DNA from: Candidatus Zixiibacteriota bacterium
Lineage (GTDB): Bacteria > Zixibacteria > MSB-5A5 > JAABVY01
Direction of reading: 5' to 3'
Length of the DNA: 64,000 bases
Assembly: GCA_011056555.1 (NCBI GenBank)
Contig: DSEQ01000034.1
Coordinates: forward strand, 11 to 64,010
Below the pieces are notes generated by a model. It searched no databases. It had not been told where the DNA came from and saw nothing but the letters and a program-made list of their open reading frames with translations. Shown here piece by piece: positions 43,423-57,160 of the stretch. Position 1 is the first letter of the stretch. Each line of letters opens with the position of its first letter. A program made the position numbers and the translations under genes.

Positions 43423-46056
43423 CTACTCCCTCTTCAGCTCTTCCTCAATTTTATATTCATTATTTTCCTTAATGCTCTTGCCGTCATCCCAGCCCTTATA
43501 ACCGTCCTTGTCGGCAATTAGCTTATATTTTCCGGCCTCGAGCTGAACTGCAAGCTGGCCGAATTCATTCGTCGTGCCCAGGTATATTCTCTTTCTATCA
43601 TCTTTTCTTTCGGCAAGAATGTTGACACCCTCCAGCGGCTCATCGCTATCATCATCCTTGAAAACGAAAATGAGCATGGCCTTTTCCATAACCTCCTCGG
43701 GCTCTTCGACCGGCTCTCCCTCATCCTCCTCCTCTCCGACCTTACGCATAACAGCCTTCAACTCCGTCTGATTTACACCGATCACAAAACTGGTATCAAT
43801 ATAATCCCGCTTACTGAGATATATTCTGTGCTCCACACCTGTCAAAAGCAAATTTATCGGCGTCTTGTCGGCCGATTCGGAAAGACGTCCCTCACTTTCA
43901 ATTTTGGTGATTCGCGCTCCAATATCTCCGCCTTTCGGATTGGAGGCTGCAACCGCGGTGACAGCGACCTCGCGATACAATTCATAAAATAGCGAACCCT
44001 GGAAATTCTCGTCGATATCAACCAACCTGACCTTGTCTTCAAATCCGGACTTTACCAGCCTGATTCTGGCTTGACCAAAAGGTATCATGACATTATCGGG
44101 CGTCTGGCCCACAGGTTCATCCTGGTCCTCCAGATAAATATCGGCTCCCTGGGGTTTACTGGAAATTTTTATATTCTTCCGAAATCTCCCGGTGATCTCC
44201 GGAAGTTCATTCTCTTTATTGTAACTATAATCCCAGAGGCCTTCATTATCAGTCTTGAAATCTCCCGAGGAGACATTGAAGCCGGCAAGTCTCAGGGCGC
44301 CTGAAGCCTTTTCATGCTCGAGCCGAATATCAACGCTATCAGTTAAAGGTATCGGAACCAGAGCAGGGGTAACCGCGGGGTAAAGATTGTTATCCACAAA
44401 TATTGATGCTCCCTGCGGGATGGAATTGATACGTGCCTCTCGCTTCAAAACGAAATTAGGAAAGGTAATTTGATCGCCCTCTTTCAGGACGAACTGGGTA
44501 TCAATCGGGCTGGCCTTGTCCATTTCGATACGGAGATTGTACTGTCCTGCGTCGAGCTGATTGATCTGCAACGGAGTTTTTCCCGACTTTTCTCCATTAA
44601 GAAAAACAACCGCACCTTCCGGAACAGAATTTATCCATACCGCATATTCCCCGGAAGGGCCGCTGCTTCCACCTGCGCCCCCGATCAAAGTGCCGATTAT
44701 AAGAAGCAGAATTAAAATTATTATTGCACCGCCGCCATACACCCAGATTCTTTTGTCGGCGCGCTTGAGGGCGGCCAGGGATGACTGAAAGTCGAAAGCG
44801 GGCTTCTTCCTCTTGAATGACGGAACTTCCCTGACTACCGTTTTAGCATCGGCGCTCTCGCTTGAATATATTGATGTTCTGGCTTCGTCTCCTGAGGTGT
44901 CATGGATAACAGTCCGGGCCTCTTCCGACGTACTATCATAGATTACCGTTTTGGCTTCTTCCGGTTCAGCTGCCGGTTCTCTTTTCGGCTTCTGCTCCCC
45001 TGTCTTCCGTTCTTCAGGCGGCCCGGGTTTCGGCCCCACAGGTTCAGGTTCCGGCGGAGTACTCAGGATTTGTGTTTTGATTTTCTGCTGGCTGTTCTGC
45101 CGGGTTGCTTTTTCCTCAGCTTCCACAGGCTCCTTAACATACATGGAATGCACCAATCGTGACAGATCCGAGGTGGGCTCACCCGGAAAATATTTTCGCG
45201 AGAGATGGTACAGGTCGACATACATTTCATTGGCTGACTTATACCTCTCAGACCTGTCTTTCTTCAGGGCCTGACGGATCACATCAGAACAACCCTCGGG
45301 CAGATCGACAGTTTCCAGGGGTGCAAAATCAATTTGCCCCGAGGTAATCTTTTTCATAACCGTGAAATCCGAATCGCCCGAAAAGAGTTCTTCACCGGTG
45401 CACATCTCGTAAAAAACCGAACCAAGCGAGAAAATATCGCTCTGGCGTGTAGCTTCTTTACCCTCCAGCTGCTCGGGAGACATGTAGGCCACCTTACCTT
45501 TGACGAAACCGGTTTGGGTCTTCTGCACTATACGGTTGCGGGCCTTGGCAATGCCGAAATCAATCAGCTTGACCGAGCCCTCCACGGTGAGCATGATATT
45601 CGAGGGCGAGATATCCCTGTGCACGATATTCAATGGCTGCCCGGATTTTCTATCCTTGAGGTTATGCGCATATTCGAGCGCTTTGCAGATTTCGCTAATA
45701 ATGTGCATGGCCATGTTTTTCGGCATGGTCTCGTTGCGATCGTTATAGTAATCGATCACCTCGCGCAGATCGACGCCTTCGATAAACTGCATGATTATAA
45801 AGACGCGATCATCGGGAGTTTTCCTGAGACTGTAAACCTGTACTATATTGGGATGGTTAAGGCGGGCTGTATTGACGGCCTCGTCGATGAACATATCGAC
45901 ATACTGCTTCTCACCCAGCAGAGATTTAACAACTTCCTTTATCGCAACGGGACGATCGAGAGTCAAATCCCAACCGTAATATATAGTGCCGAAACCTCCC
46001 GCTTTGATCTCGCGGATGATTTCATACTGCTCATCTATAATCCTGCGCGCGCTCAT
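43423..46056 (-). CDS. Hanks-type Ser/Thr protein kinase with TM segment and extracytoplasmic PEGA repeats
   Basis: 877 aa; kinase subdomains (GGFGTIY..VAIK; HRDISPSNIML; DFGIAK; SPE), Pro-rich linker, TM (IWVYGGGAIIILILLLIIGTLIGG), then at least 3 PEGA-like repeats (INSVPEGAVVFLNGEKSGKTP; INSIPQGASIFVDN; SSKPQGADIYLEDQ). Confidence 0.9.
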   Translation of the reverse strand: MSARRIIDEQYEIIREIKAGGFGTIYYGWDLTLDRPVAIKEVVKSLLGEKQYVDMFIDEAVNTARLNHPNIVQVYSLRKTPDDRVFIIMQFIEGVDLREVIDYYNDRNETMPKNMAMHIISEICKALEYAHNLKDRKSGQPLNIVHRDISPSNIMLTVEGSVKLIDFGIAKARNRIVQKTQTGFVKGKVAYMSPEQLEGKEATRQSDIFSLGSVFYEMCTGEELFSGDSDFTVMKKITSGQIDFAPLETVDLPEGCSDVIRQALKKDRSERYKSANEMYVDLYHLSRKYFPGEPTSDLSRLVHSMYVKEPVEAEEKATRQNSQQKIKTQILSTPPEPEPVGPKPGPPEERKTGEQKPKREPAAEPEEAKTVIYDSTSEEARTVIHDTSGDEARTSIYSSESADAKTVVREVPSFKRKKPAFDFQSSLAALKRADKRIWVYGGGAIIILILLLIIGTLIGGAGGSSGPSGEYAVWINSVPEGAVVFLNGEKSGKTPLQINQLDAGQYNLRIEMDKASPIDTQFVLKEGDQITFPNFVLKREARINSIPQGASIFVDNNLYPAVTPALVPIPLTDSVDIRLEHEKASGALRLAGFNVSSGDFKTDNEGLWDYSYNKENELPEITGRFRKNIKISSKPQGADIYLEDQDEPVGQTPDNVMIPFGQARIRLVKSGFEDKVRLVDIDENFQGSLFYELYREVAVTAVAASNPKGGDIGARITKIESEGRLSESADKTPINLLLTGVEHRIYLSKRDYIDTSFVIGVNQTELKAVMRKVGEEEDEGEPVEEPEEVMEKAMLIFVFKDDDSDEPLEGVNILAERKDDRKRIYLGTTNEFGQLAVQLEAGKYKLIADKDGYKGWDDGKSIKENNEYKIEEELKRE

Positions 46057-47480
46057 TTTTTCTCCGGCGCCTCCGAAAATCCAAATTTAACCGGATCGGT
46101 GGCAATAATCATCGCCGCCATTATCTTGGGAACATACTCCACCGTCTCATTGTGCAACATGTCATTTTTCACAAGATACCAGAATCTATTTTGCTCGATC
46201 ACATCCATCCTCATCAGGGCATTCCTGATTCTCCCCAGGCCTGTGTTGTAGGATGCCATAGCCAGCATATAAGAGTTATACAAATTATATAATTGTTTAA
46301 TATATTTACAAGCAGCTTCGGTGGATTTTTTCGCATTAACTCGTTCATCCATATCATTATTCACGGTCAGGCCGAAATCTCGTGCGGTTGCCGGCATAAA
46401 CTGCCAGAGCCCGCGGGCGCCGGCGGGGGATGTGGCTGTGCTGTCGTAGCCGGATTCCACGAATGCCAGATAAGCGAACTCTTCGGGCAAACCCGCACCC
46501 CTCAACATGCGCCGCACCATGCCCATATGCATCTCCGACCTTTCCAGCGAGCGTTCAAACCAGCCGCGCAAATTGCCTGTGAACTTATCCACATATTTTA
46601 CGGTATTCTCGACGAATATCAAGGGTATTTCATTCTGCGGATCGCCCAGATCCTTCGAAAGCCTTATCAAGCGGTAGCTGACATATTCCTGCAGGGTCTG
46701 CCGCGCGAGGCTTCTTTTCTCTTCCCATGGTTGATAGACATAACGGTATCCGGCCCCTGCCAAAAGAACGACAAATATGATCGGCAGCAGTACCTTCAGC
46801 AGCCTGGTGAATAGAGGACGGCGGAATTTGGCCCCCTCACCGATTCCAATTTGCGGCCCCTTTTCTCCGATCATGATGCTGTCGCCGAATTTCAAAGCGG
46901 CGGTGGTAATTCTCTCGCCATTTACATAAGTGCCATTGGTAGAATCCAGATCCTTTATGGATATTGTCGGCGGAATATAATTTATTTCGGCATGTATCCG
47001 CGAGACCATGGGCATATCCAGAGTTAGATCGCAGGCTGAATCCCGCCCGATCTCTATTCTACCGGGCAGAAACTCATAAGATTCCCCGCCGTCAACCTTC
47101 AGAAGCAGTTTTTTGGAAACTGCCTGAACCATCTGCGTCCTGTCAGCAGAACTTCTTTTTCGCGGTTTCTCGGATCGCCCGCTTTCACTGAATGTGACTT
47201 CAATCTCCGGACCGCCCTGGCCGAAGCTTACATGATCGCCAGATGATACAAATCCGGAATTATGATGATTGCCGTTTACAAAAGTGCCGTTGGAAGAACC
47301 CAGGTCGGAAAGATAGAGGCCCTCCGCCTTGACAGTGAACCTGCAGTGCTCGTAAGATACTATATCAGAATTAATGGACAGGTCGGCATCCTCCGACCTG
47401 CCAACTAATACACTGGATTGATTAAATTTAAGTCGTTTTCCTGTATTTTCACCGGATATAAATTCAAATGCTATCTCCAA
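46053..47480 (-). CDS. tandem-FHA protein fused through a TM segment to a periplasmic SLT lytic transglycosylase domain
   Basis: 475 aa; two FHA domains (VLVGRSEDADLSI..SYEHCRF..LSDLGSSNGTFVNG; IEIGRDSACDLTL..VSRIHAEI..IKDLDSTNGTYVNG), TM (LLKVLLPIIFVVLLAGAGY), SLT motifs (AFVESGYD...GARGLWQFMPATARDFGL); ATGA overlap with the kinase gene; TTG start. Confidence 0.85.
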   Translation of the reverse strand: MEIAFEFISGENTGKRLKFNQSSVLVGRSEDADLSINSDIVSYEHCRFTVKAEGLYLSDLGSSNGTFVNGNHHNSGFVSSGDHVSFGQGGPEIEVTFSESGRSEKPRKRSSADRTQMVQAVSKKLLLKVDGGESYEFLPGRIEIGRDSACDLTLDMPMVSRIHAEINYIPPTISIKDLDSTNGTYVNGERITTAALKFGDSIMIGEKGPQIGIGEGAKFRRPLFTRLLKVLLPIIFVVLLAGAGYRYVYQPWEEKRSLARQTLQEYVSYRLIRLSKDLGDPQNEIPLIFVENTVKYVDKFTGNLRGWFERSLERSEMHMGMVRRMLRGAGLPEEFAYLAFVESGYDSTATSPAGARGLWQFMPATARDFGLTVNNDMDERVNAKKSTEAACKYIKQLYNLYNSYMLAMASYNTGLGRIRNALMRMDVIEQNRFWYLVKNDMLHNETVEYVPKIMAAMIIATDPVKFGFSEAPEKK

Positions 47481-47490: not shown

Positions 47491-49707
47491 CTATCCAGTC
47501 TTAAAAATTAAGTCGATTTGACCTATAGAAATCACATCGTTATTGATCAGAACCCTTCGAGTTATCCTGTTCTTGTTAACCATCGTGCCATTGGTGGAAC
47601 CCTGGTCGATCAGCTCGTACTTGCCTCCAGAGTATTCGATGGTTGCATGATTGCGCGATACCCCCTCGGAAGGCAGGTGAATGTCATTTGCTTTGTCGGC
47701 TCCGATTTTATTGGTTCCTTTCATAAGGTGAAATTCATGCTGGGGAGCATCGCCGGATTTGACCTCCAGCATGGCTTCCCCTATCTGAGCCTTCTTGCCC
47801 TTCTTCGACGCGGCCACAATTATTATAATGATAATCAGCAGAATAACCACGATAAGGACTATCAGCAGGATCAGGCCGTACTTCTCAAGGAAGCTCTCAC
47901 CTTTTATAGCCACTTCCTCACCGCTGGGTTCGCTGTACTCGTGGCTGCTGGTAATGAGATTGCCGTCCATATCAACATCGACGCTGACACTAATTTCACC
48001 CTCTACAGGAAGGCCGGATACCGCCAGCGCATACTGGCCGCGGATAAGGGCTATCGATCTCCTGAAGAGAAAATAGATCATATCGTCTTTATCAGCAGAG
48101 TAGAAGAAACCGCCGCTGAGATCGGCAATCTTCCTTATCTCCTCCAAAAATTCGGGCGATTTTTCATTGTCATACCCCAGCGTATATATCTGCGGGAGAT
48201 CATGCGACCGCTTATAATCTTCAAGGGTCTTAAAATTGTTGCGGCTCGACTCACCTTTGCTATTAGTGACCACCACAAAGATCGGGTATTTTTCCGCGCC
48301 GGAGGTGTCATAATAATTCAAAGCCTCTAAAACCGCATCATAAAGCGGGGCCTTCTGACCGTTAAACTGGAGATTATTTATTGCCGTCTTCTGCGTCGAA
48401 AAAGATTTTTCCAGAGGCATGGCAAGTTCGATATTATCGGCAAATTTGAAAAAGGCAACCCGATGGCGGGATTCGTCCAGCTTGGCCAGAAATTCTGTGG
48501 TCAGCTTTTCCTTTATTAGATTGATCTCATTCTCTTTCAACCCCACAGTGCCGAGCAGGAAGATAAAGTCAATTTCATCCTCCCGAAACTGTGGATGCGC
48601 CTTCTGGATTTCCAACTCCTGTTCCCCGACCTTGATCCCGGGGAAATTTTCAGCTATCAGCCCGCTGACAATATTTCGGTTATCCTCGAAGACAGACAGC
48701 ACAACCAGATTTTGACTGGGAATCACCCGGTTAATGGTTATATTTTCAGTGGAATCAACATTGGACGATATAACCGCCTTTTTGATGATTGTCTCTTTTA
48801 CTGTTTTTTCGGCCACCAGAGAGGGAAGCTCGGTCAGGGCAAATTTCCAGATTGTCTCATTCTTATTATCGAGAACATAACAGACATCCCGCCCGGCAAC
48901 ATCAACAGATATCGGTTCATCAAGCATACCGCCGCTGAACGGCGCCTCCCATTGACCTGACTCGAAATCTGCGGTGAAAAAGACCACCTTTTCCTTCTTA
49001 TCCAGAACAAAGAGCTCACCGTGCTGGTTGACGCACAGGTCAACCGGCTCCCCGATTTCCTTGCCTCCGAATTGCACCGGAATTTCTATAATCAGCGAGC
49101 CTTCACTATTGAAAACCTGCACTGTCTTTTTCTTCTCATCAAGAACGAAGACCCGTCCCTGATGATCGACATCGACAGCAATTGGATCCTCGAAGCCGGC
49201 CCCCTGCAAAGTACCAAGATCCTGTCCGTCTTCATCGAAAATACGGACATTATCTTTGTCCTTATCGGCAACGTAAACGCGGCCGTCACGGGCAACCGTA
49301 ACCGACATGGGCCGACCGAACGTCTTTTCGCCGCCTATCGTGCCCTGCCGCATACCCTCCTGGGTAAAGCGCGAGAGCTCATCACGGTCGCGATCCACCA
49401 CGTACACCAACCCATCGATGCCGATATCGATATCCTGGGGAACCTCGATGTCGTCATCACCAATTGGAATAGACCTCAAATACTGGCCGTTACCTGAAAA
49501 TACCTGCACAAGATTATTGCGGGCCGAGCCGATATATATTTCACCTCCCGGGCCGACATAGATAGCCTTGACATTGGAGACCTCGCTATCACCTGTCCCG
49601 CCGGGCAGTTTTATACGCGGCAGGCTTTCTACTTTAATTGCAAAGGCATTGGAAACAAGAAACAGTGCGGCAACTATGCCCCATAAAATCAAATTCCTTT
49701 TCGACAT
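47491..49707 (-). CDS. signal-peptide NHL-repeat beta-propeller + vWA-like domain, TM, C-terminal cytoplasmic FHA domain
   Basis: 738 aa; signal peptide; at least 5 NHL-like blades (YVVDRDRD..; RVYVADKDKD..; RVFVLDEKKK..; ELFVLDKKEK..; VCYVLDNKNE..); vWA-like segment (FLLGTVGL..VVVTNSKGESS..IYTLGYD); TM (LILLIVLIVVILLIIIIIIV); FHA (KIGADKANDIHL..VSRNHATIEY..LIDQGSTNGTMVN). Confidence 0.75.
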   Translation of the reverse strand: MSKRNLILWGIVAALFLVSNAFAIKVESLPRIKLPGGTGDSEVSNVKAIYVGPGGEIYIGSARNNLVQVFSGNGQYLRSIPIGDDDIEVPQDIDIGIDGLVYVVDRDRDELSRFTQEGMRQGTIGGEKTFGRPMSVTVARDGRVYVADKDKDNVRIFDEDGQDLGTLQGAGFEDPIAVDVDHQGRVFVLDEKKKTVQVFNSEGSLIIEIPVQFGGKEIGEPVDLCVNQHGELFVLDKKEKVVFFTADFESGQWEAPFSGGMLDEPISVDVAGRDVCYVLDNKNETIWKFALTELPSLVAEKTVKETIIKKAVISSNVDSTENITINRVIPSQNLVVLSVFEDNRNIVSGLIAENFPGIKVGEQELEIQKAHPQFREDEIDFIFLLGTVGLKENEINLIKEKLTTEFLAKLDESRHRVAFFKFADNIELAMPLEKSFSTQKTAINNLQFNGQKAPLYDAVLEALNYYDTSGAEKYPIFVVVTNSKGESSRNNFKTLEDYKRSHDLPQIYTLGYDNEKSPEFLEEIRKIADLSGGFFYSADKDDMIYFLFRRSIALIRGQYALAVSGLPVEGEISVSVDVDMDGNLITSSHEYSEPSGEEVAIKGESFLEKYGLILLIVLIVVILLIIIIIIVAASKKGKKAQIGEAMLEVKSGDAPQHEFHLMKGTNKIGADKANDIHLPSEGVSRNHATIEYSGGKYELIDQGSTNGTMVNKNRITRRVLINNDVISIGQIDLIFKTG

Positions 49708-49719: not shown

Positions 49720-50178
49720 TTAGAGGCACTTGAACATCATCTCGGTCTGTCCGATTTTGATGTGATCGTTATCAATCAACTCCCACTCAGTCTGCGGCTC
49801 GCCGTTAACAAAGGTCTTGTTCTTGGAGCCGAGATCATTGATATAAAACGAACCGCCCTCATAGCGGATGGCGCAATGAGGTGAGGAAAGATAATCATCG
49901 TGTACGACTATATCCTCGTTCTGGGTGGGGCCGATCGTATATTTGCGATCATCCAAACGGTAATCCTGTCCTTTGTAGGTACCGTTGATTATAACCAGCC
50001 AGGCCACGACCGGAAGATCCTGCTGGGTTTGTCCGACTCCGACAACCCTGGTCTTTCCTCTTCCGCCTCGAGCATCCACAACCCGGGTTGCCTGAGATTT
50101 CTTCTTATCTCTCTTAGGCATCTTGGGCACATCCTTTCGTGATAATCTAAAAAATCTTCCGAAGATATTGAATCTCAT
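49720..50178 (-). CDS. small FHA-domain protein
   Basis: 152 aa; basic N-terminus then FHA (YTIGPTQNEDIVVHDDYLSSPHCAIRYEGGSFYINDLGSKNKTFVNG). Confidence 0.8.
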   Translation of the reverse strand: MRFNIFGRFFRLSRKDVPKMPKRDKKKSQATRVVDARGGRGKTRVVGVGQTQQDLPVVAWLVIINGTYKGQDYRLDDRKYTIGPTQNEDIVVHDDYLSSPHCAIRYEGGSFYINDLGSKNKTFVNGEPQTEWELIDNDHIKIGQTEMMFKCL

Positions 50179-50205: not shown

Positions 50206-51747
50206 TTACACGACTGTCTGGTAGAACCAGTATCCAAACATATTTACGTCTCTCTCGGCCGAGATTGCAATCTGTTTGACATTCACCTCTTCCTTCTTGA
50301 TAAACTTGCCATTGATGATGTAAGGCATATTCCGCCAGCGATACTTGCGGTCATTGCCGGTAATCTCCCAAACCCCCACTTTTTCGCCATCGACCTCAAT
50401 CTCAGTCTTAAGCCCGCCATAGGCATAATCGATTCTCCGTATCACCAAGACATCCAGCTCCGGCTTCAGATTCTTGATCTTGAACTGCGCGAAGCCCTCC
50501 CAGTGCAGACGGCCGCGGTCGGAAATCCGGGTGCCGTCAGGGAAGAAGAAATTCTGCTTCTGCCTCAGCTCTTCCTTCACTCCTCCCAGCTTGAACTCAT
50601 GTTCCTTCTCGGAAGCATCATCCAGTATATCTATCTTATCAACTAATTTATAGCGCACATTGTCAACCATAATTTCTTCCGGAAATTCCTTGGGCCAGAT
50701 TTTGATCTCATCCATCGACAGGCGTTCGCCTTTAAATTCCTCCAGCTCGCCCTCGACCTCAGCCCTGATTTCTGCCACCCTGGGCGCCAGGAGCTTTTTC
50801 AATGCTCCGGAGGCCTTGGCCTGGTAGATTATCAGGTTATTCAAATCCTCCGAGGTTATATCGGTTGCCGAGGTCAGATTCAGAAGCGCCTGAAGATTAT
50901 CTTTGTATTCGCCGACCTCTTTGCGCTGTGAGAGGTTGGGGGTATTCTCGAGCTCATTGGAAATCTCTTTCTCCAGATCGACGATTATTTTCAGCAGTTT
51001 AAAGGCGTTACGGTAATCGAGCTTCCCGGCAATACTGACCATCTCGGCAGTAATTGCCGACTGGTAGGCCTCCAGAGAGTACTTTAGATCATAAAGTTTG
51101 TTGAGCTGCATAAAGACCAGCTTCATATCATTGTAGACCGCAAAGATGCGGGAGACCACCTCGGGCGAGAGAATCCATCCGAAGGTACCGGCTATGGGCA
51201 CAAAGCGGGCATCGATTTCACCGGTTTCGGGATGTGACGGATCTGCCGGATTTTTGACATCCTTAAGTTCCTCCTCCAGCCGAACTCTGGCGAGTTCGAT
51301 TCCCTCATCAAGCTCGGGCGGATTGGGAAGAATTTCGACCTTGGCTCTTTCGGCAATGCGCTTATGCCCCTTGTATTGCGGATTAGCCTTGTTGGTGATA
51401 AAATCTACCGGTTCATCATAGTATTTCAGGACAACATAGACAACCATGGGAAGCTTATATTTGGACACATCAATAGCAAGGACCTTCGTTTCCCAGAGCA
51501 TGATATCGTTCCCCTGTCCATCGGTAGCATACCCCGGCGCAACTTCAATCGAAAAATCGCCCTTCTCCCTTGCGGTTACTTTCAGCTCGCCCGAAAAGTT
51601 GAGCACAACTCCCGGCGAATGAAAGAGCTGATTGTGCAGCTTATCCTTCTCCCGGGAATAATCGACAAGCAGGTTAAAATCCTCCTCCGAGGCAAAGAAG
51701 CCGCGGAAAAATGATACCCTTTTATATTCCTTACTCTCCTCGGTCAT
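50206..51747 (-). CDS. uncharacterized CIS-associated protein (513 aa) in the tail-fibre/baseplate-wedge position
   Basis: follows the gpI-like gene with a 17-nt overlap; no recognisable motifs; P2-like order V-W-J-I-(H) suggests a fibre or distal baseplate role. Confidence 0.4.
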   Translation of the reverse strand: MTEESKEYKRVSFFRGFFASEEDFNLLVDYSREKDKLHNQLFHSPGVVLNFSGELKVTAREKGDFSIEVAPGYATDGQGNDIMLWETKVLAIDVSKYKLPMVVYVVLKYYDEPVDFITNKANPQYKGHKRIAERAKVEILPNPPELDEGIELARVRLEEELKDVKNPADPSHPETGEIDARFVPIAGTFGWILSPEVVSRIFAVYNDMKLVFMQLNKLYDLKYSLEAYQSAITAEMVSIAGKLDYRNAFKLLKIIVDLEKEISNELENTPNLSQRKEVGEYKDNLQALLNLTSATDITSEDLNNLIIYQAKASGALKKLLAPRVAEIRAEVEGELEEFKGERLSMDEIKIWPKEFPEEIMVDNVRYKLVDKIDILDDASEKEHEFKLGGVKEELRQKQNFFFPDGTRISDRGRLHWEGFAQFKIKNLKPELDVLVIRRIDYAYGGLKTEIEVDGEKVGVWEITGNDRKYRWRNMPYIINGKFIKKEEVNVKQIAISAERDVNMFGYWFYQTVV

Positions 51748-52627
51748 CTTGTTTCCCTTCCTCTATTTCTTCATGAACATTATCCGTTTCACCAACCCAT
51801 GATTCCACGCCGATCATGGAGGCCACACCGACCTGCATGAAGTCGGCCTCCTCGAGCTCGGGCTCGGCGAAGATCATGTAGTAATTTGTATGCGCGGGTT
51901 TTTCCGCCTGTACAATCGCATGAATTTTGCGAATCATCTCAACCGGCGTATCATCGATTGTCTGCGGAATCCTGACTGTAAAGCAATGCGAACGATCTAT
52001 ATAGCCGATTATAATTGAATCTACTCCAATGGTCGAGGACACCCCCACCTGAAAACCGTTAAAGGGCCAGTAATTCTCAATAATCTCCGGGGTGCTTTCA
52101 GTATAAATTTTCAGATATAATGCCAAGCCCCGCGAGGTTCCCCGCAGCTTATATATCTTTACGATATTGGCAATCAATTCGCGTTTCTTGGCCTCATCCC
52201 AGTTTTCATCGAGAACCAGCGCCAGAACCGATGCCAGATAGGGCAGGAATTTATCCGGGGTATTAAACGGCTCGAAATATGTGTGTATATCCCTGATTGT
52301 ACGGTCGATCGGGATTTGCGGATGTTTCAATAACCACAGGAACCGCTTCAGGAACGAGCCCTCGCGCATATCGTATTGACGGTATATATTCGGCAGGAAG
52401 TTGAGATAGCTTTTGCCCGATATCACCAGTCTGATACCCTCCGCCGGCACAGGCTGATCGGCCTGTGGATTCTGGATAATTATCCGGCCCTCGGGCTCCA
52501 GCGATTCCTCAAACTCGATTGTGCGGATTTTTATGCCATCCAGGCGGCACATCTTCTCCGCTTTTTCAATATCGAGCCCGATAAAATTCGGAACTGTCTT
52601 TTCAGCTACTGCGGCTTCAGTAACCAT
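51731..52627 (-). CDS. phage tail protein I (P2 gpI-like) baseplate component with N-terminal PASTA-like domain
   Basis: 298 aa; N-terminal PASTA-like fold (VPNFIGLDIEKAEKMCRLDGIKI..GRIIIQNPQADQPVPAEGIRLVISG); gpI-family core (FLPYLASVLALVLDENWDEAKKRELIANIVKIYKLRGTSRGLALYL). Confidence 0.7.
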   Translation of the reverse strand: MVTEAAVAEKTVPNFIGLDIEKAEKMCRLDGIKIRTIEFEESLEPEGRIIIQNPQADQPVPAEGIRLVISGKSYLNFLPNIYRQYDMREGSFLKRFLWLLKHPQIPIDRTIRDIHTYFEPFNTPDKFLPYLASVLALVLDENWDEAKKRELIANIVKIYKLRGTSRGLALYLKIYTESTPEIIENYWPFNGFQVGVSSTIGVDSIIIGYIDRSHCFTVRIPQTIDDTPVEMIRKIHAIVQAEKPAHTNYYMIFAEPELEEADFMQVGVASMIGVESWVGETDNVHEEIEEGKQDDRGE

Positions 52628-55600
52628 TTAGTAATCTCTTCTCACCTGATAGCTGTTAACGTCAACAACATAAAACAGCTGGTCCGCTTTGGCCGGCACC
52701 TTATCGACAAACAGCTTGCGCTGTTCATCAAAAATTTCCAGACGGTCTATGTATTCAACTCCGTCAGTATCCTCGACTACACGATACAAATCCGTTTTAA
52801 TAAGCGCCTTTCCGAAAGGCCAGCCTCTGCCGTCGCTCCCTCCCCTGAGGGGATGCAGGTAATTTCTGATATTATTCTCAAGATCGCGTTTAACGCGTTC
52901 CGGGTCGGCGCCGGTGGCCTTGGTCTGGTAGCTGACCTCGAACGAAACCTCCAGATAGGTGGGCCGATTGACGTGCAATTTTGTGGTCAGCAGGCGCCGC
53001 GGCTCCAGATAATCGGTCACCATATTCAAAAGCTGAGTGGTGGGCATAATTTTGGAGCCTTCTTTTTCCTGCGAGGCGGATTCATTGGGAACTATCACCA
53101 AGGTTACTTCGCCCTCGGTGGGGCAGTTGGAGATACAATGCACCCGGGCGATATTCGATGAGGCCCTCTGGGCCAGCCATTCATAATCCTCGGAGGTTAC
53201 TGCACGGAACCTGTTTCTGAATATTTGCGGAGCCCGCAGTTTGGCGTCGGAAACTGATTCCAGATCAGAACCGCCTACAGCCGGGAAATAATTAACCACC
53301 GACTGCACCGAAGGATTGGATCGCCTCAATATTGTTAAAGACTTTGCGCCGACATTGCCCTCGCTCCCTCCACCAGTACGGTAATTGCGGGCAACGATTG
53401 AATTCGAGCCTGACGGCGGACGCATCCCCTTGCGGCCGTCCCCGAATTTGATCCGGCCGGTTATGTGGTCAAGCACATAATGTCTCGAGGTACCATTCGA
53501 ATTGTAGAAATTATCGACTTCATGCCAGCGCACCCATATCTTTGAGGGATTTCCCGTGCTGTCGGCTTCGATTTCAACGGCATCCTCGCCTTCCTCGGCT
53601 TTTATGGTCTCTATCTCTTCCTTATTTGGAGGGGTCAATTCGCGGACATATATCATCTGCCCCTCAAGGACAGGCGGATTTGAGAATTTGAAAACCTGGT
53701 CAGGAGTACCGTCGGATGATCCCAGTACCTCATTTATTATAGTAGAATGATTGCGCGCCATAACGCTGTTGGTCAGAACAGCACGCATCTCCGGCGGCGC
53801 GGCATATCCGCCGTCTCTGAAACGGCAGCGTATCCAGTAGAGCTCATGTCCGAATTTTTCGGTCTTTGAAAATCCCCGGGGGAACTCAAAGCGCACTATT
53901 CCGCTATTCTTGAAGTTATTGGTATTATCATAAGGCAGAAGATCGGCCCAATCCTTGCCGTTAAAATATTCCCACCAGATTTTCTGCTCCACGCGGGTAT
54001 CGCGGAATATTTCCTCTCCGAAATATTTGGTCGTAACCTCATCCATTGGCAGCCTCTGATCCTCTTTCATATTGAAGCAAAGCGCATAGGTCTCCTTGGG
54101 CAGCACCGCTTCAAATCCAAGATAGAGTGAGGGCGAGCGGTCGCGTTCCTCCTCGAAAAGCTGGAAGGGCTTGTATTCCTCGCTCACATTGCTCGAAAAA
54201 TCGCGGTACGTGAAATCGGCATAAGATTTCAGGCTGGACAGGAAAACCGCCTTCTGGTTATACCTGAGGGTCAGAGAACGGATACATGGCGGCCGCAGCG
54301 GATTGTCATCTTTCCAGACCCAGTTTTTACCCACCTGCTCATAATGACCCGCCTGGCCATAATTACCCTTCGTCAAACGGCAGCGAATCCAGAATCCGTC
54401 CAGGCCGTTGACCTGAGTCGGCTTCATGTCCTCGGGACGATCGAATTTTATCTCCCCTGAGTGAGTGAATGCAAGGGTCGAATCAATAAAGTTAAATTTA
54501 CCCGCGGGCCTTGAGACTCCCGACGGCAAAGTTGTCCCGAGCTCGATCCATTTCTTACCGTTGAAGTATTCCCAGATTAGTTCCAGATCGGAGGACGGCA
54601 CCGGATTTTCGACCACAGATGGGTCGGCCAGCCCGACATCGATTATAATCTCCGAATCTTCTTTGCTGAAAATATCGGGAGATGAGAGGTATAACGTGTA
54701 ATCATATTTCGGCTCTTCCGAAAATGGATAAACGCTCTTGGAAAAATCAAGCGGCAGAAAGATTGATCCGGCAATGTTTGAGAATCCAGCGTCGGGATGG
54801 GGCCCGTCCTCAACAATTTTCGCCTCGAGCGAAATAGTGTCCATTTCAGTAACCTCAGGCGAGGCCGGTATTGCAGCCAGGATCGCCTTGAACCAATATG
54901 TCTCCACGCCGTCTATTTCGGTTTTCTCCAGATCTGAAAGCGGGCCGGAAATTTCCAGCAGAGTTTCATTTTCACCCAATGCTTCAGTATAGACCATGCG
55001 GGTCTTCAATTCTTTGAATCGCTTGCCGTTGAAATATTCCATTCGCAGCATGGTCATCAACGCCTTGCCCTCCTCCGAGGCGGCCTTGAACCTCAGGAAA
55101 AGGCTGGCAGATTCCGTGAGCGCGGATAATTTTTCATCCCCCATGAAAATGGCGCGTTCTATCTGCGATACTCCCCCGAATACCGGAAAGCCCTCATCGG
55201 AGGGATTATTTATATATCCGCTGTTGTCCGATATAGCATCCCCTGCAGTCGAGAAAACTCTGGCCAGCTTTACAGGTGAAAGATTTAAATCTTCGGCTGT
55301 TTCAAAAACTACGCTCTCAACCGCCTCTGTCTGGCTGGTGGCAACCTGGGTACCCTTCGGCACTGTGGTGGTCTTCTCCAGACCCTTATTTGGTTTGAAT
55401 GTCAGGTATGTCTCCGCCGGCTGCGGCAGCAGTAATGACATGCCGATAAGATCAAGTAGAGCGACATAGGTTTTATCCGAGACTTTGTTTAGCTTATAGA
55501 TCGTCATCTCGGTGAGCCAGGAAAACAACTCCAGAAGGGTAATTCCCGGGTCTGAGGGATTATGATCTGTCCACTCCGGGCAGTACTTTGGAATCAGCCT

Positions 55601-55663
55601 CCGGAGTTCATCCATTATATCCCTGTGCGTCCGATCATCAAGATTTGGGGGATTTATTGGCAT
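52628..55663 (-). CDS. baseplate J-like protein (gp6/Afp11-like putative baseplate assembly protein)
   Basis: 1011 aa; N-terminus PNLDDRTHRDIMDELRRLIPKYCPEWTDHNPSDPGITLLELFSWLTEMTIYKLNKV matches the conserved start of CIS/phage baseplate-J proteins. Confidence 0.85.
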   Translation of the reverse strand: MPINPPNLDDRTHRDIMDELRRLIPKYCPEWTDHNPSDPGITLLELFSWLTEMTIYKLNKVSDKTYVALLDLIGMSLLLPQPAETYLTFKPNKGLEKTTTVPKGTQVATSQTEAVESVVFETAEDLNLSPVKLARVFSTAGDAISDNSGYINNPSDEGFPVFGGVSQIERAIFMGDEKLSALTESASLFLRFKAASEEGKALMTMLRMEYFNGKRFKELKTRMVYTEALGENETLLEISGPLSDLEKTEIDGVETYWFKAILAAIPASPEVTEMDTISLEAKIVEDGPHPDAGFSNIAGSIFLPLDFSKSVYPFSEEPKYDYTLYLSSPDIFSKEDSEIIIDVGLADPSVVENPVPSSDLELIWEYFNGKKWIELGTTLPSGVSRPAGKFNFIDSTLAFTHSGEIKFDRPEDMKPTQVNGLDGFWIRCRLTKGNYGQAGHYEQVGKNWVWKDDNPLRPPCIRSLTLRYNQKAVFLSSLKSYADFTYRDFSSNVSEEYKPFQLFEEERDRSPSLYLGFEAVLPKETYALCFNMKEDQRLPMDEVTTKYFGEEIFRDTRVEQKIWWEYFNGKDWADLLPYDNTNNFKNSGIVRFEFPRGFSKTEKFGHELYWIRCRFRDGGYAAPPEMRAVLTNSVMARNHSTIINEVLGSSDGTPDQVFKFSNPPVLEGQMIYVRELTPPNKEEIETIKAEEGEDAVEIEADSTGNPSKIWVRWHEVDNFYNSNGTSRHYVLDHITGRIKFGDGRKGMRPPSGSNSIVARNYRTGGGSEGNVGAKSLTILRRSNPSVQSVVNYFPAVGGSDLESVSDAKLRAPQIFRNRFRAVTSEDYEWLAQRASSNIARVHCISNCPTEGEVTLVIVPNESASQEKEGSKIMPTTQLLNMVTDYLEPRRLLTTKLHVNRPTYLEVSFEVSYQTKATGADPERVKRDLENNIRNYLHPLRGGSDGRGWPFGKALIKTDLYRVVEDTDGVEYIDRLEIFDEQRKLFVDKVPAKADQLFYVVDVNSYQVRRDY

Positions 55664-56460: not shown

Positions 56461-56479
56461 ATCATATCTCCATTCTTAC

Positions 56480-57148: not shown

Positions 57149-57160
57149 ATCGTTAACTCC

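What the first reader, a model, noticed from the sequence alone, without database searches (positions are those of the whole stretch)
47491..49707. Periplasmic NHL beta-propeller plus vWA-like domain tethered to a cytoplasmic FHA domain
Signal peptide, at least five NHL-type blades with repeated hydrophobic-x-V/L-D-x-K/D-x-D/E-x-V motifs, and a vWA-like segment, followed by a poly-Ile/Leu TM helix and a C-terminal FHA. NHL propellers and vWA domains are ligand- or partner-binding scaffolds. Coupled to an FHA domain, this reads as a trans-membrane adaptor that converts periplasmic binding into recruitment of a phosphorylated cytoplasmic partner, or the reverse. It could be a structural analogue of T6SS TagL/TssL-type anchors.
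Basis: partly seen in the sequence, partly recalled or inferred. Interest (0 to 1): 0.6.

Follow-up and report, generated by a model that had tools for sequence, protein, structure and literature searches.

The report
Membrane FHA adaptor of an injection system
This gene encodes a membrane-spanning protein with a propeller and a metal-site-less vWA domain outside the cell membrane and an atypical phosphothreonine-reader (FHA) domain inside. It belongs to a kinase/phosphatase/cell-wall-cutting gene set that other bacteria embed in type VI secretion clusters, and here that set follows a phage-tail-like injection system of an uncultured Zixibacterium.

Summary
ORF 47491-49707 (-) encodes 738 aa: signal peptide, six-bladed NHL propeller, beta-sandwich plus vWA-fold module, one TM helix and a C-terminal FHA domain.

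Two refinements:
- The vWA has no MIDAS site.
- The FHA keeps Ser-x-x-His and Asn-Gly but has Ala instead of the canonical Gly-Arg arginine. All relatives found share this.

The gene is not isolated. It lies in a tightly packed run: Afp/PVC-type contractile injection system (CIS) genes, small FHA, this gene, FHA-FHA-TM-lytic transglycosylase, Ser/Thr kinase-TM-PEGA, FHA-FHA-TM, PP2C.

Residues 325-738 are homologous (hhalign 99.8%, E 9e-30) to a 434-436 aa vWA-TM-FHA protein. That protein is one gene of a five-gene module: small FHA, FHA-FHA-SLT, vWA-TM-FHA, PP2C, kinase-PEGA. In other bacteria this module sits inside canonical T6SS clusters.

A second, high-GC lineage with a related CIS also carries a kinase and a small FHA gene in the CIS operon.

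Best reading: a bitopic scaffold or sensor of a T6SS-style threonine-phosphorylation and wall-opening module that an eCIS-type machine has recruited. The mechanism is inferred, not shown. I found no published description. I rate it a new variant of a known kind, interest about 0.6.

The parts
47491..49707 (-). Target gene, 738 aa: signal peptide, NHL propeller, beta-sandwich/vWA, TM, FHA.
   Evidence: ORF list and translation. Pfam. AF2 model with mean pLDDT 81. 14 full-length homologues at 49-100% identity; the named ones are Zixibacteria.
49639..49707 (-). Signal peptide, residues 1-23 (MSKRNLILWGIVAALFLVSNAFA|IK).
   Evidence: Read from the sequence. Hydropathy segment 5-29. Helix 3-21 in the model. 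No dedicated predictor was run.
48817..49635 (-). Six-bladed NHL beta-propeller, residues 25-297, predicted periplasmic.
   Evidence: Pfam NHL E 5.9e-16. Six blade motifs. pLDDT of about 90. Foldseek PDB hits to TRIM2/3/71, Brat and PknD NHL domains, target TM 0.80-0.89 among these hits.
47932..48771 (-). Beta-sandwich plus vWA-fold module without MIDAS, residues 313-592. The vWA alpha/beta core is residues 379-556, that is 48040-48573.
   Evidence: Domain model with pLDDT 90.4. Foldseek hits to ArnB/vWA2, vWF A1/A3 and integrin I domains. hhalign 97.6% to TIGR03436-type VWA proteins. MIDAS positions replaced.
47809..47877 (-). Single transmembrane helix, residues 611-633, followed by a basic KKGKK stretch (cytoplasmic side).
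   Evidence: Hydropathy peak of 4.25. Helix 606-635 in the model.
47494..47781 (-). Cytoplasmic FHA domain, residues 643-738. Gly669-Ala670 replaces Gly-Arg. Ser684, His687 and Asn706-Gly707 are kept.
   Evidence: Pfam FHA E 3.7e-19. Alignment to GarA/OdhI/Rv1747 structures. Residue table. Family alignments.
49720..50178 (-). Small FHA protein (152 aa) with a basic N-terminus carrying two TRVV motifs. It starts 27 nt after the last CIS gene and ends 12 nt before the target.
   Evidence: Pfam FHA E 4e-17. Best window match of the small FHA gene of the T6SS-embedded module. An orthologous gene follows the c513 gene in the high-GC CIS locus L036.
46053..47480 (-). FHA-FHA-TM-lytic transglycosylase (475 aa). 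It has two fully canonical cytoplasmic FHA domains and a periplasmic SLT domain. It starts 10 nt after the target.
   Evidence: Pfam. TM at 221-249. Residue table. More than 1700 homologues. It sits in T6SS clusters in L010, L093 and L094, and next to T6SS genes in L005 and L008.
43423..46056 (-). Hanks-type Ser/Thr kinase, TM, periplasmic PEGA repeats and a CarboxypepD_reg-like domain (877 aa).
   Evidence: Pfam Pkinase E 2.7e-45 and PEGA E 1.6e-30. TM at 435-466.
42112..43422 (-). FHA (degenerate), Pro-rich linker, FHA, C-terminal TM anchor (436 aa). The N-terminal part resembles T6SS TagH/Fha.
   Evidence: Pfam. NCBIfam VI_FHA E 3.8e-17, 63 bits, below the 120-bit cut-off. TM at 411-436. 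Residue table.
40747..42105 (-). PP2C phosphatase, TM, C-terminal extracytoplasmic domain (452 aa). This is the last gene of the run.
   Evidence: Pfam PP2C_2. NCBIfam Stp1_PP2C_phos 262 bits, above the cut-off. TM at 318-348.
40724..40747 (.). Strong bidirectional terminator-like hairpin (AAAAAGCCCGCTCGCGGGCTTTTT) between the PP2C gene and the convergent rplS gene. It is the only intergenic one in 40.3-52.7 kb.
   Evidence: All minus-strand terminator-like sites upstream of it lie inside ORFs.
50206..62519 (-). Afp/PVC-type contractile injection system genes on the same strand: sheath (60771-62519), tube (60324-60767), 847-aa unknown (57781-60324), CIS_tube+LysM (57161-57781), VgrG-like spike (56480-57148), PAAR (56065-56460), gp25 (55663-56064), Baseplate_J (52628-55663), PASTA+Tail_P2_I (51731-52627), 513-aa unknown (50206-51747). 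The locus continues beyond the window with a Pvc16_N cap and a second sheath/tube pair.
   Evidence: Pfam. NCBIfam. Upstream extension in L002. No TssJ/K/L/M or long VgrG in the window.

Best explanation
The protein is the NHL-extended member of a small family of bitopic inner-membrane proteins: signal peptide, beta-sandwich/vWA, TM, FHA. That family is one gene of a conserved module made of a small FHA protein, an FHA-FHA-TM-lytic transglycosylase, the vWA-TM-FHA protein, a PP2C phosphatase and a Ser/Thr kinase-TM-PEGA. In other bacteria this module is embedded in canonical T6SS clusters. There it takes the place of the PpkA/PppA/Fha threonine-phosphorylation pathway and adds a wall-cutting enzyme.

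In this Zixibacterium the module is co-transcribed with an Afp/PVC-type contractile injection system that has no TssJLM membrane complex.

Proposed working (inferred):
1. The exported propeller plus MIDAS-less vWA reach into the periplasm. There they bind a wall or outer-membrane feature, or the periplasmic PEGA or SLT domains of the partner proteins.
2. The cytoplasmic FHA joins the membrane-proximal cluster of kinase, phosphatase and other FHA proteins.
3. Together they mark a membrane site, switch it on or off by threonine phosphorylation, open the peptidoglycan locally, and so license docking, assembly or firing of the injection machine.

What is shown: the architecture, the fold, the homology to the T6SS-linked family, and the gene linkage in several lineages. 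What is inferred: topology, binding partners, phospho-dependence and the effect on the CIS.
For: Architecture and folds.

Operon-like packing. Gaps or overlaps between consecutive genes from the last CIS gene to the PP2C gene are 27, 12, 10, -4, 0 and 6 nt, all on one strand. No intergenic terminator occurs until 40724-40747.

Synteny. The same gene order is present in the most distant close homologue, at 51% identity (L001).

Homology to the module gene. Target residues 325-738 match the third gene of the module: hhalign 99.8%, E 8.6e-30, 386 columns; BLASTP E 1e-8 to 3e-17. The same non-Arg FHA feature is present.

Position of the module elsewhere. It lies between TssG/ClpV/VgrG and TssJ/K/L/M in L010, L093 and L094, and next to TssJ/TssK in L005. 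The FHA-FHA-SLT gene lies next to TssK/L/M in L008. In total 5 of 10 sampled non-Zixibacterial contexts are T6SS-linked, and 4 of the 5 with the full module.

Independent replicate. A related CIS (Baseplate_J 42% identical, GC 68%) has a one-TM Ser/Thr kinase directly upstream of gp25 and a small FHA gene directly after the 513-aa gene's homologue. The gene order differs from the window (L036 and L088).

Published precedents:
- PpkA carries a periplasmic vWA domain (PMC3224232).
- TagR/TagQ and TssW act in the periplasm on PpkA to position and start T6SS assembly (PMC13584744, PMC12607579).
- Peptidoglycan-remodelling enzymes, the lytic transglycosylase MltE and the endopeptidase TagX, are needed for T6SS activity; MltE is recruited to the membrane complex to facilitate its assembly (PMC13584744).
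- eCIS-like machines have repeatedly gained lineage-specific membrane anchors (PMC8894136, PMC11566945, PMC12237407).

The cell is diderm: BamA and SprA are in the window.
Against: No experiment and no interaction prediction links this protein to the CIS. All linkage is by gene order.

Within Zixibacteria the locus sits at the same chromosomal place next to rplS. Conservation there may therefore be simple vertical inheritance.

The closest full-length relative outside Zixibacteria (P0247, 23% identity, E 9e-58) is paired with FHA-FHA-SLT and a TPR kinase, with no CIS or T6SS gene within 10 kb (L006). One full module also stands alone (L007).

The FHA lacks the Gly-Arg arginine, and the AF2 model of it is of low confidence (pLDDT 50-65), so phosphothreonine reading is uncertain.

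The vWA has no MIDAS, so the usual ligand-binding mode is excluded.

The high-GC CIS loci end before a target homologue could be seen, so the NHL-vWA-FHA gene itself is tied to a CIS only in Zixibacteria.
Confidence: 0.55

Rival explanations
1. The FHA/kinase/PP2C/SLT genes, including this one, form a general cell-envelope signalling module. It controls peptidoglycan turnover through the FHA-regulated lytic transglycosylase, much like the actinobacterial FhaA/FhaB/PstP/PknB cluster. Its position after the CIS genes would then be incidental, or only reflect shared expression.
For: - The target's nearest non-Zixibacterial homologue is paired with FHA-FHA-SLT and a kinase with no CIS or T6SS within 10 kb (L006).
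- The full module stands alone in L007.
- Single-FHA SLT relatives stand alone in L009, L091 and L092.
- The small FHA protein resembles FhaB/FipA (NCBIfam 68.9 bits, below cut-off), the kinase resembles PknB-type kinases, and the phosphatase passes the Stp1/IreP model.
- PEGA is regarded as a wall-associating domain (PMC7159879).
Against: - 4 of 5 full modules sampled are inside or beside T6SS clusters, which is far more than chance for loci that occupy well under 1% of a genome.
- Kinase and FHA genes are also interleaved with CIS genes in a second lineage with a different order.
- No rodA/pbpA-type wall-synthesis genes are present in the run.
- Spacing is tight and there is no terminator between the CIS genes and the module.
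Confidence: 0.22
2. The protein is mainly a static structural anchor. Several copies would form a ring or set of legs in the inner membrane. The atypical FHA domains would serve as phospho-independent protein-protein modules, as in T3SS YscD/PrgH, that hold the CIS baseplate. The periplasmic propeller/vWA stalk would brace the machine against the wall or outer membrane. In effect this replaces TssJLM/TagL.
For: - The FHA lacks the phosphate-contacting Arg in every family member.
- Pfam Yop-YscD_cpl scores above its cut-off (51.6 vs 33.2 bits).
- No TssJ/K/L/M is present in the window.
- Five bitopic membrane proteins are encoded in a row.
- Other eCIS-like systems gained lineage-specific anchors (PMC8894136, PMC11566945, PMC12237407).
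Against: - In T6SS loci the homologous vWA-TM-FHA protein coexists with a complete TssJLM complex, so it is not a replacement for that complex there.
- Ser-x-x-His and Asn-Gly of the phosphopeptide site are strictly conserved, which argues for retained ligand binding.
- A kinase and a phosphatase are always present alongside.
- The orientation is opposite to YscD, which has FHA at the N-terminus and its periplasmic part at the C-terminus.
Confidence: 0.18
3. The gene is unrelated to the injection system and acts as a periplasmic enzyme, an adhesin, or part of an anti-phage kinase defence system.
For: - NHL propellers include enzymes; PAL appears among the Foldseek hits.
- The neighbouring kinase matches PADLOC kinase models such as PD-T4-6 over its catalytic domain.
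Against: - The target and four other module proteins have no PADLOC hit, and the kinase hits cover only the generic Hanks domain.
- There are no PHROG hits.
- No catalytic motif was identified, and the best propeller matches are binding scaffolds.
- The family is conserved with T6SS/CIS genes.
Confidence: 0.04

Closest known systems
T6SS threonine-phosphorylation pathway (PpkA/TagE, PppA/TagG, Fha1/TagH, with periplasmic activators TagR/TagQ or TssW)
   Same: Both have a membrane Hanks kinase, a PP2C phosphatase and FHA protein(s) encoded with a contractile machine. Both include a periplasmic vWA domain: PpkA has one (PMC3224232). In both, periplasmic partners are thought to set where and when the machine assembles (PMC13584744, PMC12607579). 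Homologous modules lie inside canonical T6SS clusters.
   Different: Here the vWA is fused to an FHA domain rather than to the kinase, and the kinase carries PEGA repeats. There are five FHA-bearing proteins, four of them membrane-anchored. A lytic transglycosylase is built into the module. In the window the associated machine is an Afp/PVC-type CIS without TssJLM or ClpV. The target's FHA lacks the Gly-Arg arginine.
ArnA/ArnB (zinc-ribbon-FHA protein and vWA protein) of Sulfolobus acidocaldarius
   Same: ArnB and vWA2 are the best structural matches of the middle module: a vWA with a beta-sandwich built from strands on both sides of it (PMC6509490). Both pair FHA with vWA under kinase and phosphatase control. 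Distant homologues of the target even carry a zinc ribbon just before the FHA.
   Different: ArnA and ArnB are two soluble cytoplasmic proteins, with an intact MIDAS and a phosphorylated four-helix bundle (PMC6509490). The target is one polypeptide with vWA and FHA on opposite sides of the membrane, no MIDAS, no helix bundle and only 11-14% identity. ArnA/ArnB regulate archaellum expression, not a secretion machine.
TIGR03436 'acidobacterial VWFA-related' proteins
   Same: Profile-profile homology covers the beta-sandwich, vWA and C-terminal strands (97.6%, E 3e-12). These proteins are also exported.
   Different: Those proteins are about 330 aa, keep a canonical MIDAS (DxSxS, TDG) and have no TM-FHA or NHL part. 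The target does not reach the NCBIfam model at E 0.01.
T6SS TagL / TssL membrane anchors
   Same: All are inner-membrane proteins with a periplasmic part, encoded with a contractile machine.
   Different: TagL has three TM helices and an OmpA/MotB-type peptidoglycan-binding domain, and TssL has a DotU fold (PMC13584744). Neither feature is present in the target.
Lineage-specific anchors of eCIS-like systems (Anabaena Cis12/Cis13 extensions, haloarchaeal Hbor_38620, Streptomyces CisA)
   Same: These are accessory membrane proteins or baseplate extensions that convert an eCIS-type particle to a membrane-associated mode (PMC8894136, PMC11566945, PMC12237407).
   Different: None of them contains FHA, vWA or NHL domains or comes with a kinase and phosphatase. 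No FHA or kinase term occurs in those papers.
PknD-type sensor kinases (NHL propeller outside, kinase inside)
   Same: Both have an extracytoplasmic six-bladed NHL propeller tethered by one TM helix to a Ser/Thr-signalling domain. 1rwi is among the Foldseek hits.
   Different: The cytoplasmic part here is a reader-type FHA domain, not a kinase. A vWA module is inserted between the propeller and the membrane.

Membership tests
FHA domain (PF00498) | Profile match above the Pfam gathering score. | tested here: met
   69.4 bits against a 20.7-bit cut-off, E 3.7e-19, residues 667-729.
FHA domain (PF00498) | Gly-Arg in the beta3-beta4 loop (the arginine contacts the phosphate). | tested here: not met
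   The sequence is Gly669-Ala670. This position is A/S/T in all 14 close homologues and A/S/T/K in distant relatives and in the T6SS-linked homologues.
FHA domain (PF00498) | Ser-x-x-His in the beta4-beta5 loop and Asn-Gly in the beta6-beta7 loop. | tested here: met
   Ser684, His687 and Asn706 are invariant, including in relatives at 21-30% identity. Gly707 is invariant in the 14 close homologues but becomes His or Cys in the distant ones.
FHA domain (PF00498) | Binds phosphothreonine peptides. | not testable with these tools
   This needs ITC or peptide arrays with the purified domain.
NHL-repeat six-bladed beta-propeller | NHL repeat profile match, and six blades closing into a propeller. 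| tested here: met
   Pfam NHL 58.1 bits against a 20-bit cut-off. Six blade motifs. Model pLDDT of about 90. Target TM 0.80-0.89 to solved six-bladed NHL domains.
von Willebrand factor A domain | Rossmann-like alpha/beta vWA fold. | tested here: met
   Model pLDDT 90.4. Foldseek probability 1.0 and target TM 0.70-0.75 to vWF A1/A3 and integrin I domains. hhalign 97.6% to VWA proteins. Pfam VWA hits are precomputed for homologues P0003, P0007 and P0008.
von Willebrand factor A domain | Pfam profile match above the gathering score. | tested here: not met
   VWA_2 scores 17.8 bits against a 27-bit cut-off, E 0.0054, on the isolated segment. Nothing is found on the full protein at E 0.01.
von Willebrand factor A domain | MIDAS (DxSxS plus a distal Thr and Asp). 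| tested here: not met
   No DxSxS is present in any register after beta-A (IDFIFLLGTVGLKENE). The MIDAS Thr position is Lys452 and the MIDAS Asp position is Asn482; Asn482 is invariant and Lys452 nearly invariant (at least 90%) in the family.
TIGR03436 acidobact_VWFA | NCBIfam model match above its cut-off. | tested here: not met
   There is no hit at E 0.01 for the target, whereas P0123 scores 240 bits. Only profile-profile homology is seen.
vWA-TM-FHA gene of the T6SS-embedded five-gene module (unnamed family defined here) | N-terminal export signal, vWA-like domain, one TM, C-terminal FHA lacking the Gly-Arg arginine. | tested here: met
   hhalign of A4 against A5 gives 99.8%, E 8.6e-30, aligning target residues 325-738 with residues 37-434. 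TM positions. FHA motif. The NHL propeller is an extra.
vWA-TM-FHA gene of the T6SS-embedded five-gene module (unnamed family defined here) | Encoded next to FHA-FHA-TM-SLT, a small FHA protein, a PP2C and a kinase-TM-PEGA. | tested here: met
   All four partners are in the same run of genes, in a different order and with one additional FHA-FHA-TM gene.
T6SS threonine-phosphorylation pathway (PpkA/PppA/Fha) | Membrane Hanks kinase, PP2C phosphatase and FHA protein encoded together. | tested here: met
   The TagH model (TIGR03354) matches four FHA proteins of the run only below its cut-off, at 35-63 bits against 120.
T6SS threonine-phosphorylation pathway (PpkA/PppA/Fha) | Located in a T6SS cluster with TssJ/K/L/M, ClpV and so on. 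| tested here: not met
   tblastn finds no TssJ, K, L, M or long VgrG in the window, and the only ClpV-like hit is a housekeeping Clp ATPase at 16967-19426. The feature is met by homologous modules in L010, L093 and L094.
T6SS threonine-phosphorylation pathway (PpkA/PppA/Fha) | Phosphorylation of the FHA protein switches the machine on. | not testable with these tools
   This needs genetics and phosphoproteomics.
T6SS TagL / TssL anchors | OmpA/MotB-type peptidoglycan-binding domain (TagL), or a DotU cytoplasmic domain (TssL). | tested here: not met
   There is no PF00691 or PF09850 hit and only a single TM.
Afp/PVC-type (eCIS-like) contractile injection system locus | Sheath, tube, gp25, Baseplate_J, Tail_P2_I, spike, PAAR, LysM tube-initiator and Pvc16_N cap. 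| tested here: met
Afp/PVC-type (eCIS-like) contractile injection system locus | AAA+ ATPase (Afp15/Pvc15-like) in the locus. | tested here: inconclusive
   None was seen between the Pvc16_N cap and the PP2C gene, or in the 4.7 kb upstream of the cap. The remainder of the 927-kb contig was not examined.
T3SS YscD/PrgH cytoplasmic domain | Yop-YscD_cpl profile match, with an N-terminal cytoplasmic FHA-like domain followed by a TM and periplasmic ring-building domains. | tested here: not met
   The profile match passes (51.6 bits against 33.2). The domain order is reversed, with the exported part N-terminal and the FHA C-terminal, and there are no T3SS genes nearby.

The most novel reading that the evidence does not exclude
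The Zixibacterial machine is a new, cell-anchored class of contractile injection system. It would be an Afp/PVC-type particle that fires from inside a diderm cell. In this reading the TssJLM complex is functionally replaced by a set of bitopic FHA proteins: this NHL-vWA-TM-FHA protein, FHA-FHA-TM-SLT, FHA-FHA-TM, plus kinase-PEGA and PP2C. Docking, wall opening and firing would be gated by threonine phosphorylation. The target would be the periplasm-spanning sensor or leg that selects the firing site.
Probability: 0.3. Interest if true: 0.8.

Novelty: new variant of a known kind. Interest (0 to 1): 0.6.

Why it matters
Contractile injection systems are sorted by how the baseplate meets a membrane: free eCIS particles, TssJLM-anchored T6SS, and a few lineage-specific anchors. 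How eCIS-type machines are controlled after translation is largely unknown.

This locus suggests that the T6SS threonine-phosphorylation logic (kinase, phosphatase, FHA readers), plus a built-in wall-cutting enzyme, has been moved onto an eCIS-type machine in an uncultured FCB-group phylum.

It also brings to light a five-gene set inside T6SS clusters of other, mostly high-GC bacteria; homologues of its transglycosylase gene that carry names are from Acidobacteria. I could not find that set described.

If the linkage is functional, three things follow:
- a testable route by which eCIS-like systems become cell-anchored and signal-gated;
- a new family of T6SS-associated genes;
- an FHA subfamily without the canonical arginine, whose ligand is unknown.

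Tried and rejected
- A sequence-profile search of the middle module against PDB chains found nothing meaningful.
- The GTDB genome scan with the family alignment returned only one locus, a close Zixibacterial relative on a short contig.
- The metagenome scan used only an FHA peptide pattern and returned 80 generic FHA loci. None encoded the NHL or vWA parts. Two of them happened to carry a related CIS (L036, L088), which turned out to be useful.
- A profile search with the middle module in the 5.8-billion-protein set found only weak VWA proteins. An exhaustive search of 1.84 billion representatives found only about a dozen clusters matching vWA+TM+FHA. Their genomic context could not be fetched.
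- Cluster look-ups gave no organism names for the T6SS-bearing loci.
- PADLOC and PHROGs gave nothing for the target, so the anti-phage defence and prophage readings were dropped.
- Literature searches for FHA or kinase with eCIS-type systems, for Zixibacteria with CIS, and for the T6SS five-gene module found no description.
- I considered the weak NCBIfam CIS12_fam hit on the NHL region (34 bits) as evidence that the propeller is a detached baseplate domain. I rejected this as too weak, because it looks like generic NHL repeat similarity. The C-terminal part of that model does match the window's Tail_P2_I protein.

Full report
**1. What is there**

An identical protein is on record from a candidate division Zixibacteria metagenome-assembled genome, on a 927-kb contig. 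Only 14 full-length homologues (49-100% identity) turned up among 5.8 billion protein clusters.

Pfam finds NHL repeats (E 5.9e-16) and a C-terminal FHA domain (E 3.7e-19).

An AlphaFold2 model built on the 14-sequence alignment has mean pLDDT 81 and resolves these parts:
- an N-terminal helix (the signal peptide);
- a propeller at residues 25-297, pLDDT about 90;
- a disordered linker at 298-311;
- a beta-rich segment at 313-372;
- an alpha/beta domain at 379-556;
- further strands at 559-592;
- a long helix at 606-635;
- a low-confidence FHA domain.

The propeller matches solved six-bladed NHL domains (TRIM2/3/71, Brat, the designed Pizza6 proteins and the PknD sensor domain) with target TM-scores of 0.80-0.89 among these hits. 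Six blade motifs can be read directly in the sequence.

**2. The vWA question**

By sequence the middle part is only marginally vWA: VWA_2 scores 17.8 bits, below the 27-bit cut-off. A separate model of residues 305-600 is confident (pLDDT 90.4, pTM 0.89).

Its best PDB matches are the archaeal ArnB/vWA2 proteins. These are followed by a Catenulispora vWA protein, vWF A1/A3 domains and integrin I domains, at probability 1.0 and target TM 0.70-0.75 over about 190 residues.

A profile-profile comparison with exported acidobacterial VWA proteins of the TIGR03436 type gives 97.6% probability, E 3e-12 over 243 columns. The match includes the beta-strands that flank the vWA on both sides. This is the same 'vWA plus split beta-sandwich' arrangement described for ArnB/vWA2 (PMC6509490).

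- no DxSxS follows strand beta-A;
- the MIDAS Thr position is Lys452 (nearly invariant in the family);
- the MIDAS Asp (the 'TDG' motif) is an invariant Asn482.

**3. The FHA question**

The domain aligns without gaps to GarA/OdhI and Rv1747 FHA structures. Ser684-x-x-His687 and Asn706-Gly707 are kept. The Gly-Arg arginine that contacts the phosphate is Ala670.

This is not a one-off:
- the position is A/S/T in all 14 close homologues;
- it is A/S in relatives at 21-30% identity;
- it is A/S/K in shorter vWA-TM-FHA proteins;
- it is S/A/T in the T6SS-linked homologues.

The domain is a genuine FHA with a non-canonical phosphate pocket. Of the six other FHA domains in the run, only the two on the transglycosylase protein are fully canonical.

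**4. Topology**

The signal peptide (KR, hydrophobic core, AFA|IK), a single very hydrophobic helix at 611-633 and a following KKGKK stretch place NHL and vWA outside and the FHA inside. BamA and a SprA-type T9SS translocon in the same window show the cell is diderm, so 'periplasmic' is appropriate. Topology is inferred, not measured.

**5. Surroundings**

The gene is the twelfth of sixteen consecutive minus-strand genes in the window.

Upstream lie the genes of an Afp/PVC-type contractile injection system: sheath, tube, an 847-aa unknown, CIS_tube+LysM, a VgrG-like spike, PAAR, gp25, Baseplate_J, PASTA+Tail_P2_I and a 513-aa unknown. Beyond the window end the locus continues with a second sheath/tube pair and a Pvc16_N cap.

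Downstream of the CIS genes, in order:
- a 152-aa FHA protein;
- the target;
- FHA-FHA-TM-SLT lytic transglycosylase;
- Ser/Thr kinase-TM-PEGA;
- FHA-Pro-rich-FHA-TM;
- PP2C-TM.

Gaps or overlaps between these genes are 27, 12, 10, -4, 0 and 6 nt. The only intergenic terminator-like hairpin is a strong bidirectional one at 40724-40747, after the PP2C gene. No TssJ/K/L/M or long VgrG is present in the window. The most distant close homologue (51% identity) has the same gene order and the same flank, rplS. Within Zixibacteria, conservation alone therefore cannot separate function from vertical inheritance.

**6. Evidence from other lineages**

*(a) The neighbouring FHA-FHA-TM-SLT protein.* It has more than 1700 homologues. 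I sampled ten non-Zixibacterial contexts, chosen by alignment coverage or contig length and not by content.
- In L010, L093 and L094 a five-gene set lies between TssG/ClpV/(VgrG) and TssJ/TssK/TssL/TssM of a canonical T6SS cluster. The set is: small FHA, FHA-FHA-SLT, a 424-451 aa 'FHA' protein, PP2C, kinase-PEGA.
- In L005 the set is followed by TssJ and TssK.
- In L008 the SLT gene abuts TssK/L/M.
- In L007 the set stands alone within 10 kb.
- Three single-FHA SLT relatives also stand alone.

*(b) The 434-436 aa 'FHA' protein of that set.* It has an N-terminal hydrophobic segment, a TM helix at about residue 320 and a C-terminal FHA. It is homologous to target residues 325-738: hhalign 99.8%, E 8.6e-30, 386 aligned columns covering the beta-sandwich, vWA, TM and FHA, with BLASTP E 1e-8 to 3e-17. 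The target is therefore the NHL-extended Zixibacterial representative of a module gene that elsewhere is a T6SS-associated gene.

*(c) A second CIS lineage.* Two metagenomic contigs of 68% GC (L036, L088) were picked up only through their FHA domains. They carry a related CIS: gp25 55-57%, Baseplate_J 42%, and the 513-aa protein 39-49% identical. In both, a one-TM Ser/Thr kinase lies directly upstream of gp25. In L036 a small zinc-ribbon-FHA gene lies directly after the 513-aa gene's homologue. It resembles the window's 152-aa FHA and also lacks the Arg. The gene order differs from the window, so this is an independent arrangement of CIS with kinase and FHA.

*(d) Counter-evidence.* The nearest full-length relative of the target outside Zixibacteria (P0247, 762 aa, 23% identity over 736 residues, E 9e-58) lies immediately upstream of an FHA-FHA-SLT gene and near a TPR-kinase. 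No CIS or T6SS gene is within 10 kb.

**7. Family picture**

An exhaustive HMMER search of 1.84 billion representatives with residues 305-738 found about a dozen clusters matching beyond the FHA. They fall into two groups:
- NHL-containing proteins of 750-870 aa, which have lost the MIDAS and often carry a zinc ribbon before the FHA;
- shorter proteins of 415-530 aa without NHL, which keep a DxSxT/SDG MIDAS-like site.

The core is vWA-TM-(zinc ribbon)-FHA. The propeller is an add-on, and MIDAS loss accompanies it. The zinc-ribbon-FHA plus vWA combination echoes ArnA/ArnB (PMC6509490), but here the two halves sit on opposite sides of a membrane.

**8. How it most likely works**

*Shown:* the architecture, the folds, the homology to a T6SS-embedded gene family, and co-linear packing with a CIS, a kinase, a phosphatase, four other FHA proteins and a lytic transglycosylase.

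*Established background:*
- In T6SS, PpkA (kinase-TM-periplasmic vWA; PMC3224232) is activated through periplasmic partners such as TagR/TagQ or TssW.
- PpkA phosphorylates Fha/TagH, which triggers assembly at chosen sites, and PppA reverses this (PMC13584744, PMC12607579).
- Peptidoglycan-remodelling enzymes, the lytic transglycosylase MltE and the endopeptidase TagX, are needed for T6SS activity; MltE is recruited to the membrane complex to facilitate its assembly (PMC13584744).

*Inferred:* the target combines in one chain a periplasmic vWA, as in PpkA, and a cytoplasmic FHA, as in Fha. Its propeller/vWA stalk would bind an envelope feature or the periplasmic PEGA or SLT domains of its neighbours. 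Its FHA would join the kinase/phosphatase/FHA cluster under the membrane. The assembly would mark and open a site and license the injection machine. I put 0.55 on this general model. I am much more confident in module membership (about 0.85) than in any particular binding step.

**9. Rivals**

- A wall-remodelling signalling module unrelated to the CIS (0.22). This is supported by L006 and L007. It is weakened by the T6SS embedding in 4 of 5 full modules and by the second CIS lineage.
- A static, phospho-independent anchor in the manner of YscD/PrgH that replaces TssJLM (0.18). The missing Arg and the lack of TssJLM fit this. Against it, the homologue coexists with TssJLM in T6SS loci, and the remaining phosphopeptide-site residues are invariant.
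- An enzyme, an adhesin or a defence system (0.04). There are no PADLOC or PHROG hits and no catalytic motif.

**10. Comparison and novelty**

The protein is not a TagL/TssL anchor, because the defining domains are absent. It is not a TIGR03436 member, being below the model threshold and without MIDAS. It is not an ArnA/ArnB pair, since it has different topology, no MIDAS and no helix bundle.

It works most like a fused, membrane-split version of the PpkA-vWA/Fha part of the T6SS threonine-phosphorylation pathway.

Searches of 8 million papers found no report of the following:
- FHA, kinase or PP2C genes in eCIS-type loci;
- CIS in Zixibacteria;
- the five-gene T6SS module.

I rate it a new variant of a known kind. 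The regulatory logic is known, while the components, the fusion and the host machine are new. The main limits are that everything rests on gene order and structure prediction in uncultured organisms, and that the NHL-vWA-FHA gene itself is tied to a CIS only in Zixibacteria.

Noticed in passing
window 51731-52627 (-); also L001 7078-7974: The Cis12-like baseplate protein (Tail_P2_I, NCBIfam CIS12_fam C-terminal part) starts with a PASTA domain. PASTA is normally an extracytoplasmic peptidoglycan or muropeptide-binding module of PBPs and PknB kinases. A wall-binding domain on a CIS baseplate is unusual, and it fits a machine that meets peptidoglycan.
   Followed up: partly
L010 9153-16235; L093 9123-16290; L094 9090-16325; L005 9524-16415; L007 9733-16254: A five-gene set lies inside canonical T6SS clusters, between ClpV/VgrG and TssJKLM. 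The set is: small FHA, FHA-FHA-TM-SLT, vWA-TM-FHA, PP2C, kinase-TM-PEGA. I found no description of it, and it looks like an uncatalogued group of T6SS-associated genes.
   Followed up: partly
L036 1240-10210; L088 2-10120: Contigs of 68% GC carry a related CIS with a one-TM Ser/Thr kinase directly upstream of gp25. L036 has a zinc-ribbon-FHA gene right after the homologue of the 513-aa gene. L088 has a divergently transcribed 821-aa FHA-coiled-coil protein. The contigs end before more can be seen.
   Followed up: partly
window 57781-60324 (-): This 847-aa ORF has no Pfam, NCBIfam or PHROG match. It lies in a stretch of 57% GC against about 48% around it, and its C-terminal half is rich in Gly/Ser/Ala/Arg. 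It sits between the tube and tube-initiator genes, where a tape-measure-like protein would be expected.
   Followed up: no
window 62576-63481 and 63506-63970 (-); L002 7119-9944: Three paralogous proteins of about 300 aa with signal peptides (faint DUF4412) lie between the two sheath-tube gene pairs of the CIS locus. Exported proteins in the middle of a CIS structural operon are unexplained.
   Followed up: no
window 49720-50178 (-): The small FHA protein has a strongly basic N-terminus with two TRVV motifs (a pT-x-x-V-type FHA ligand consensus). Its own FHA has Gly-Pro instead of Gly-Arg and Asn-Lys instead of Asn-Gly. It is a plausible kinase substrate.
   Followed up: no
P0247, P0250, P0280, P0293 (distant homologues; L006 7711-9999): Distant relatives carry a CxxC...CxxC zinc ribbon between the TM helix and the FHA. 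This gives the same zinc-ribbon-FHA arrangement as archaeal ArnA, while their exported vWA resembles ArnB. The Zixibacterial proteins have lost the ribbon.
   Followed up: partly
target residues 91-241 (window about 48985-49437) and window 51731-52627: The NCBIfam model CIS12_fam (NF053768, 715 positions) matches the window's Tail_P2_I protein with its C-terminal part (81 bits). Its N-terminal positions 47-190 match the target's NHL blades (34 bits). Some Cis12 baseplate proteins may therefore carry an NHL-like propeller.
   Followed up: no
L010 5349-9083; L093 6249-9065; L094 5453-9049: The T6SS clusters that hold the module also encode a 940-1240 aa protein with FlgD_ig and a Por_Secre_tail (T9SS C-terminal sorting) domain, just upstream of the small FHA gene. 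A T9SS-sorted surface protein inside a T6SS cluster is odd.
   Followed up: no
window 3831-9833 (+) and 26766-29075 (-): A 2000-aa SprA-type T9SS translocon and a BamA (Omp85+POTRA) gene are present. They confirm an outer membrane in this Zixibacterium.
   Followed up: no
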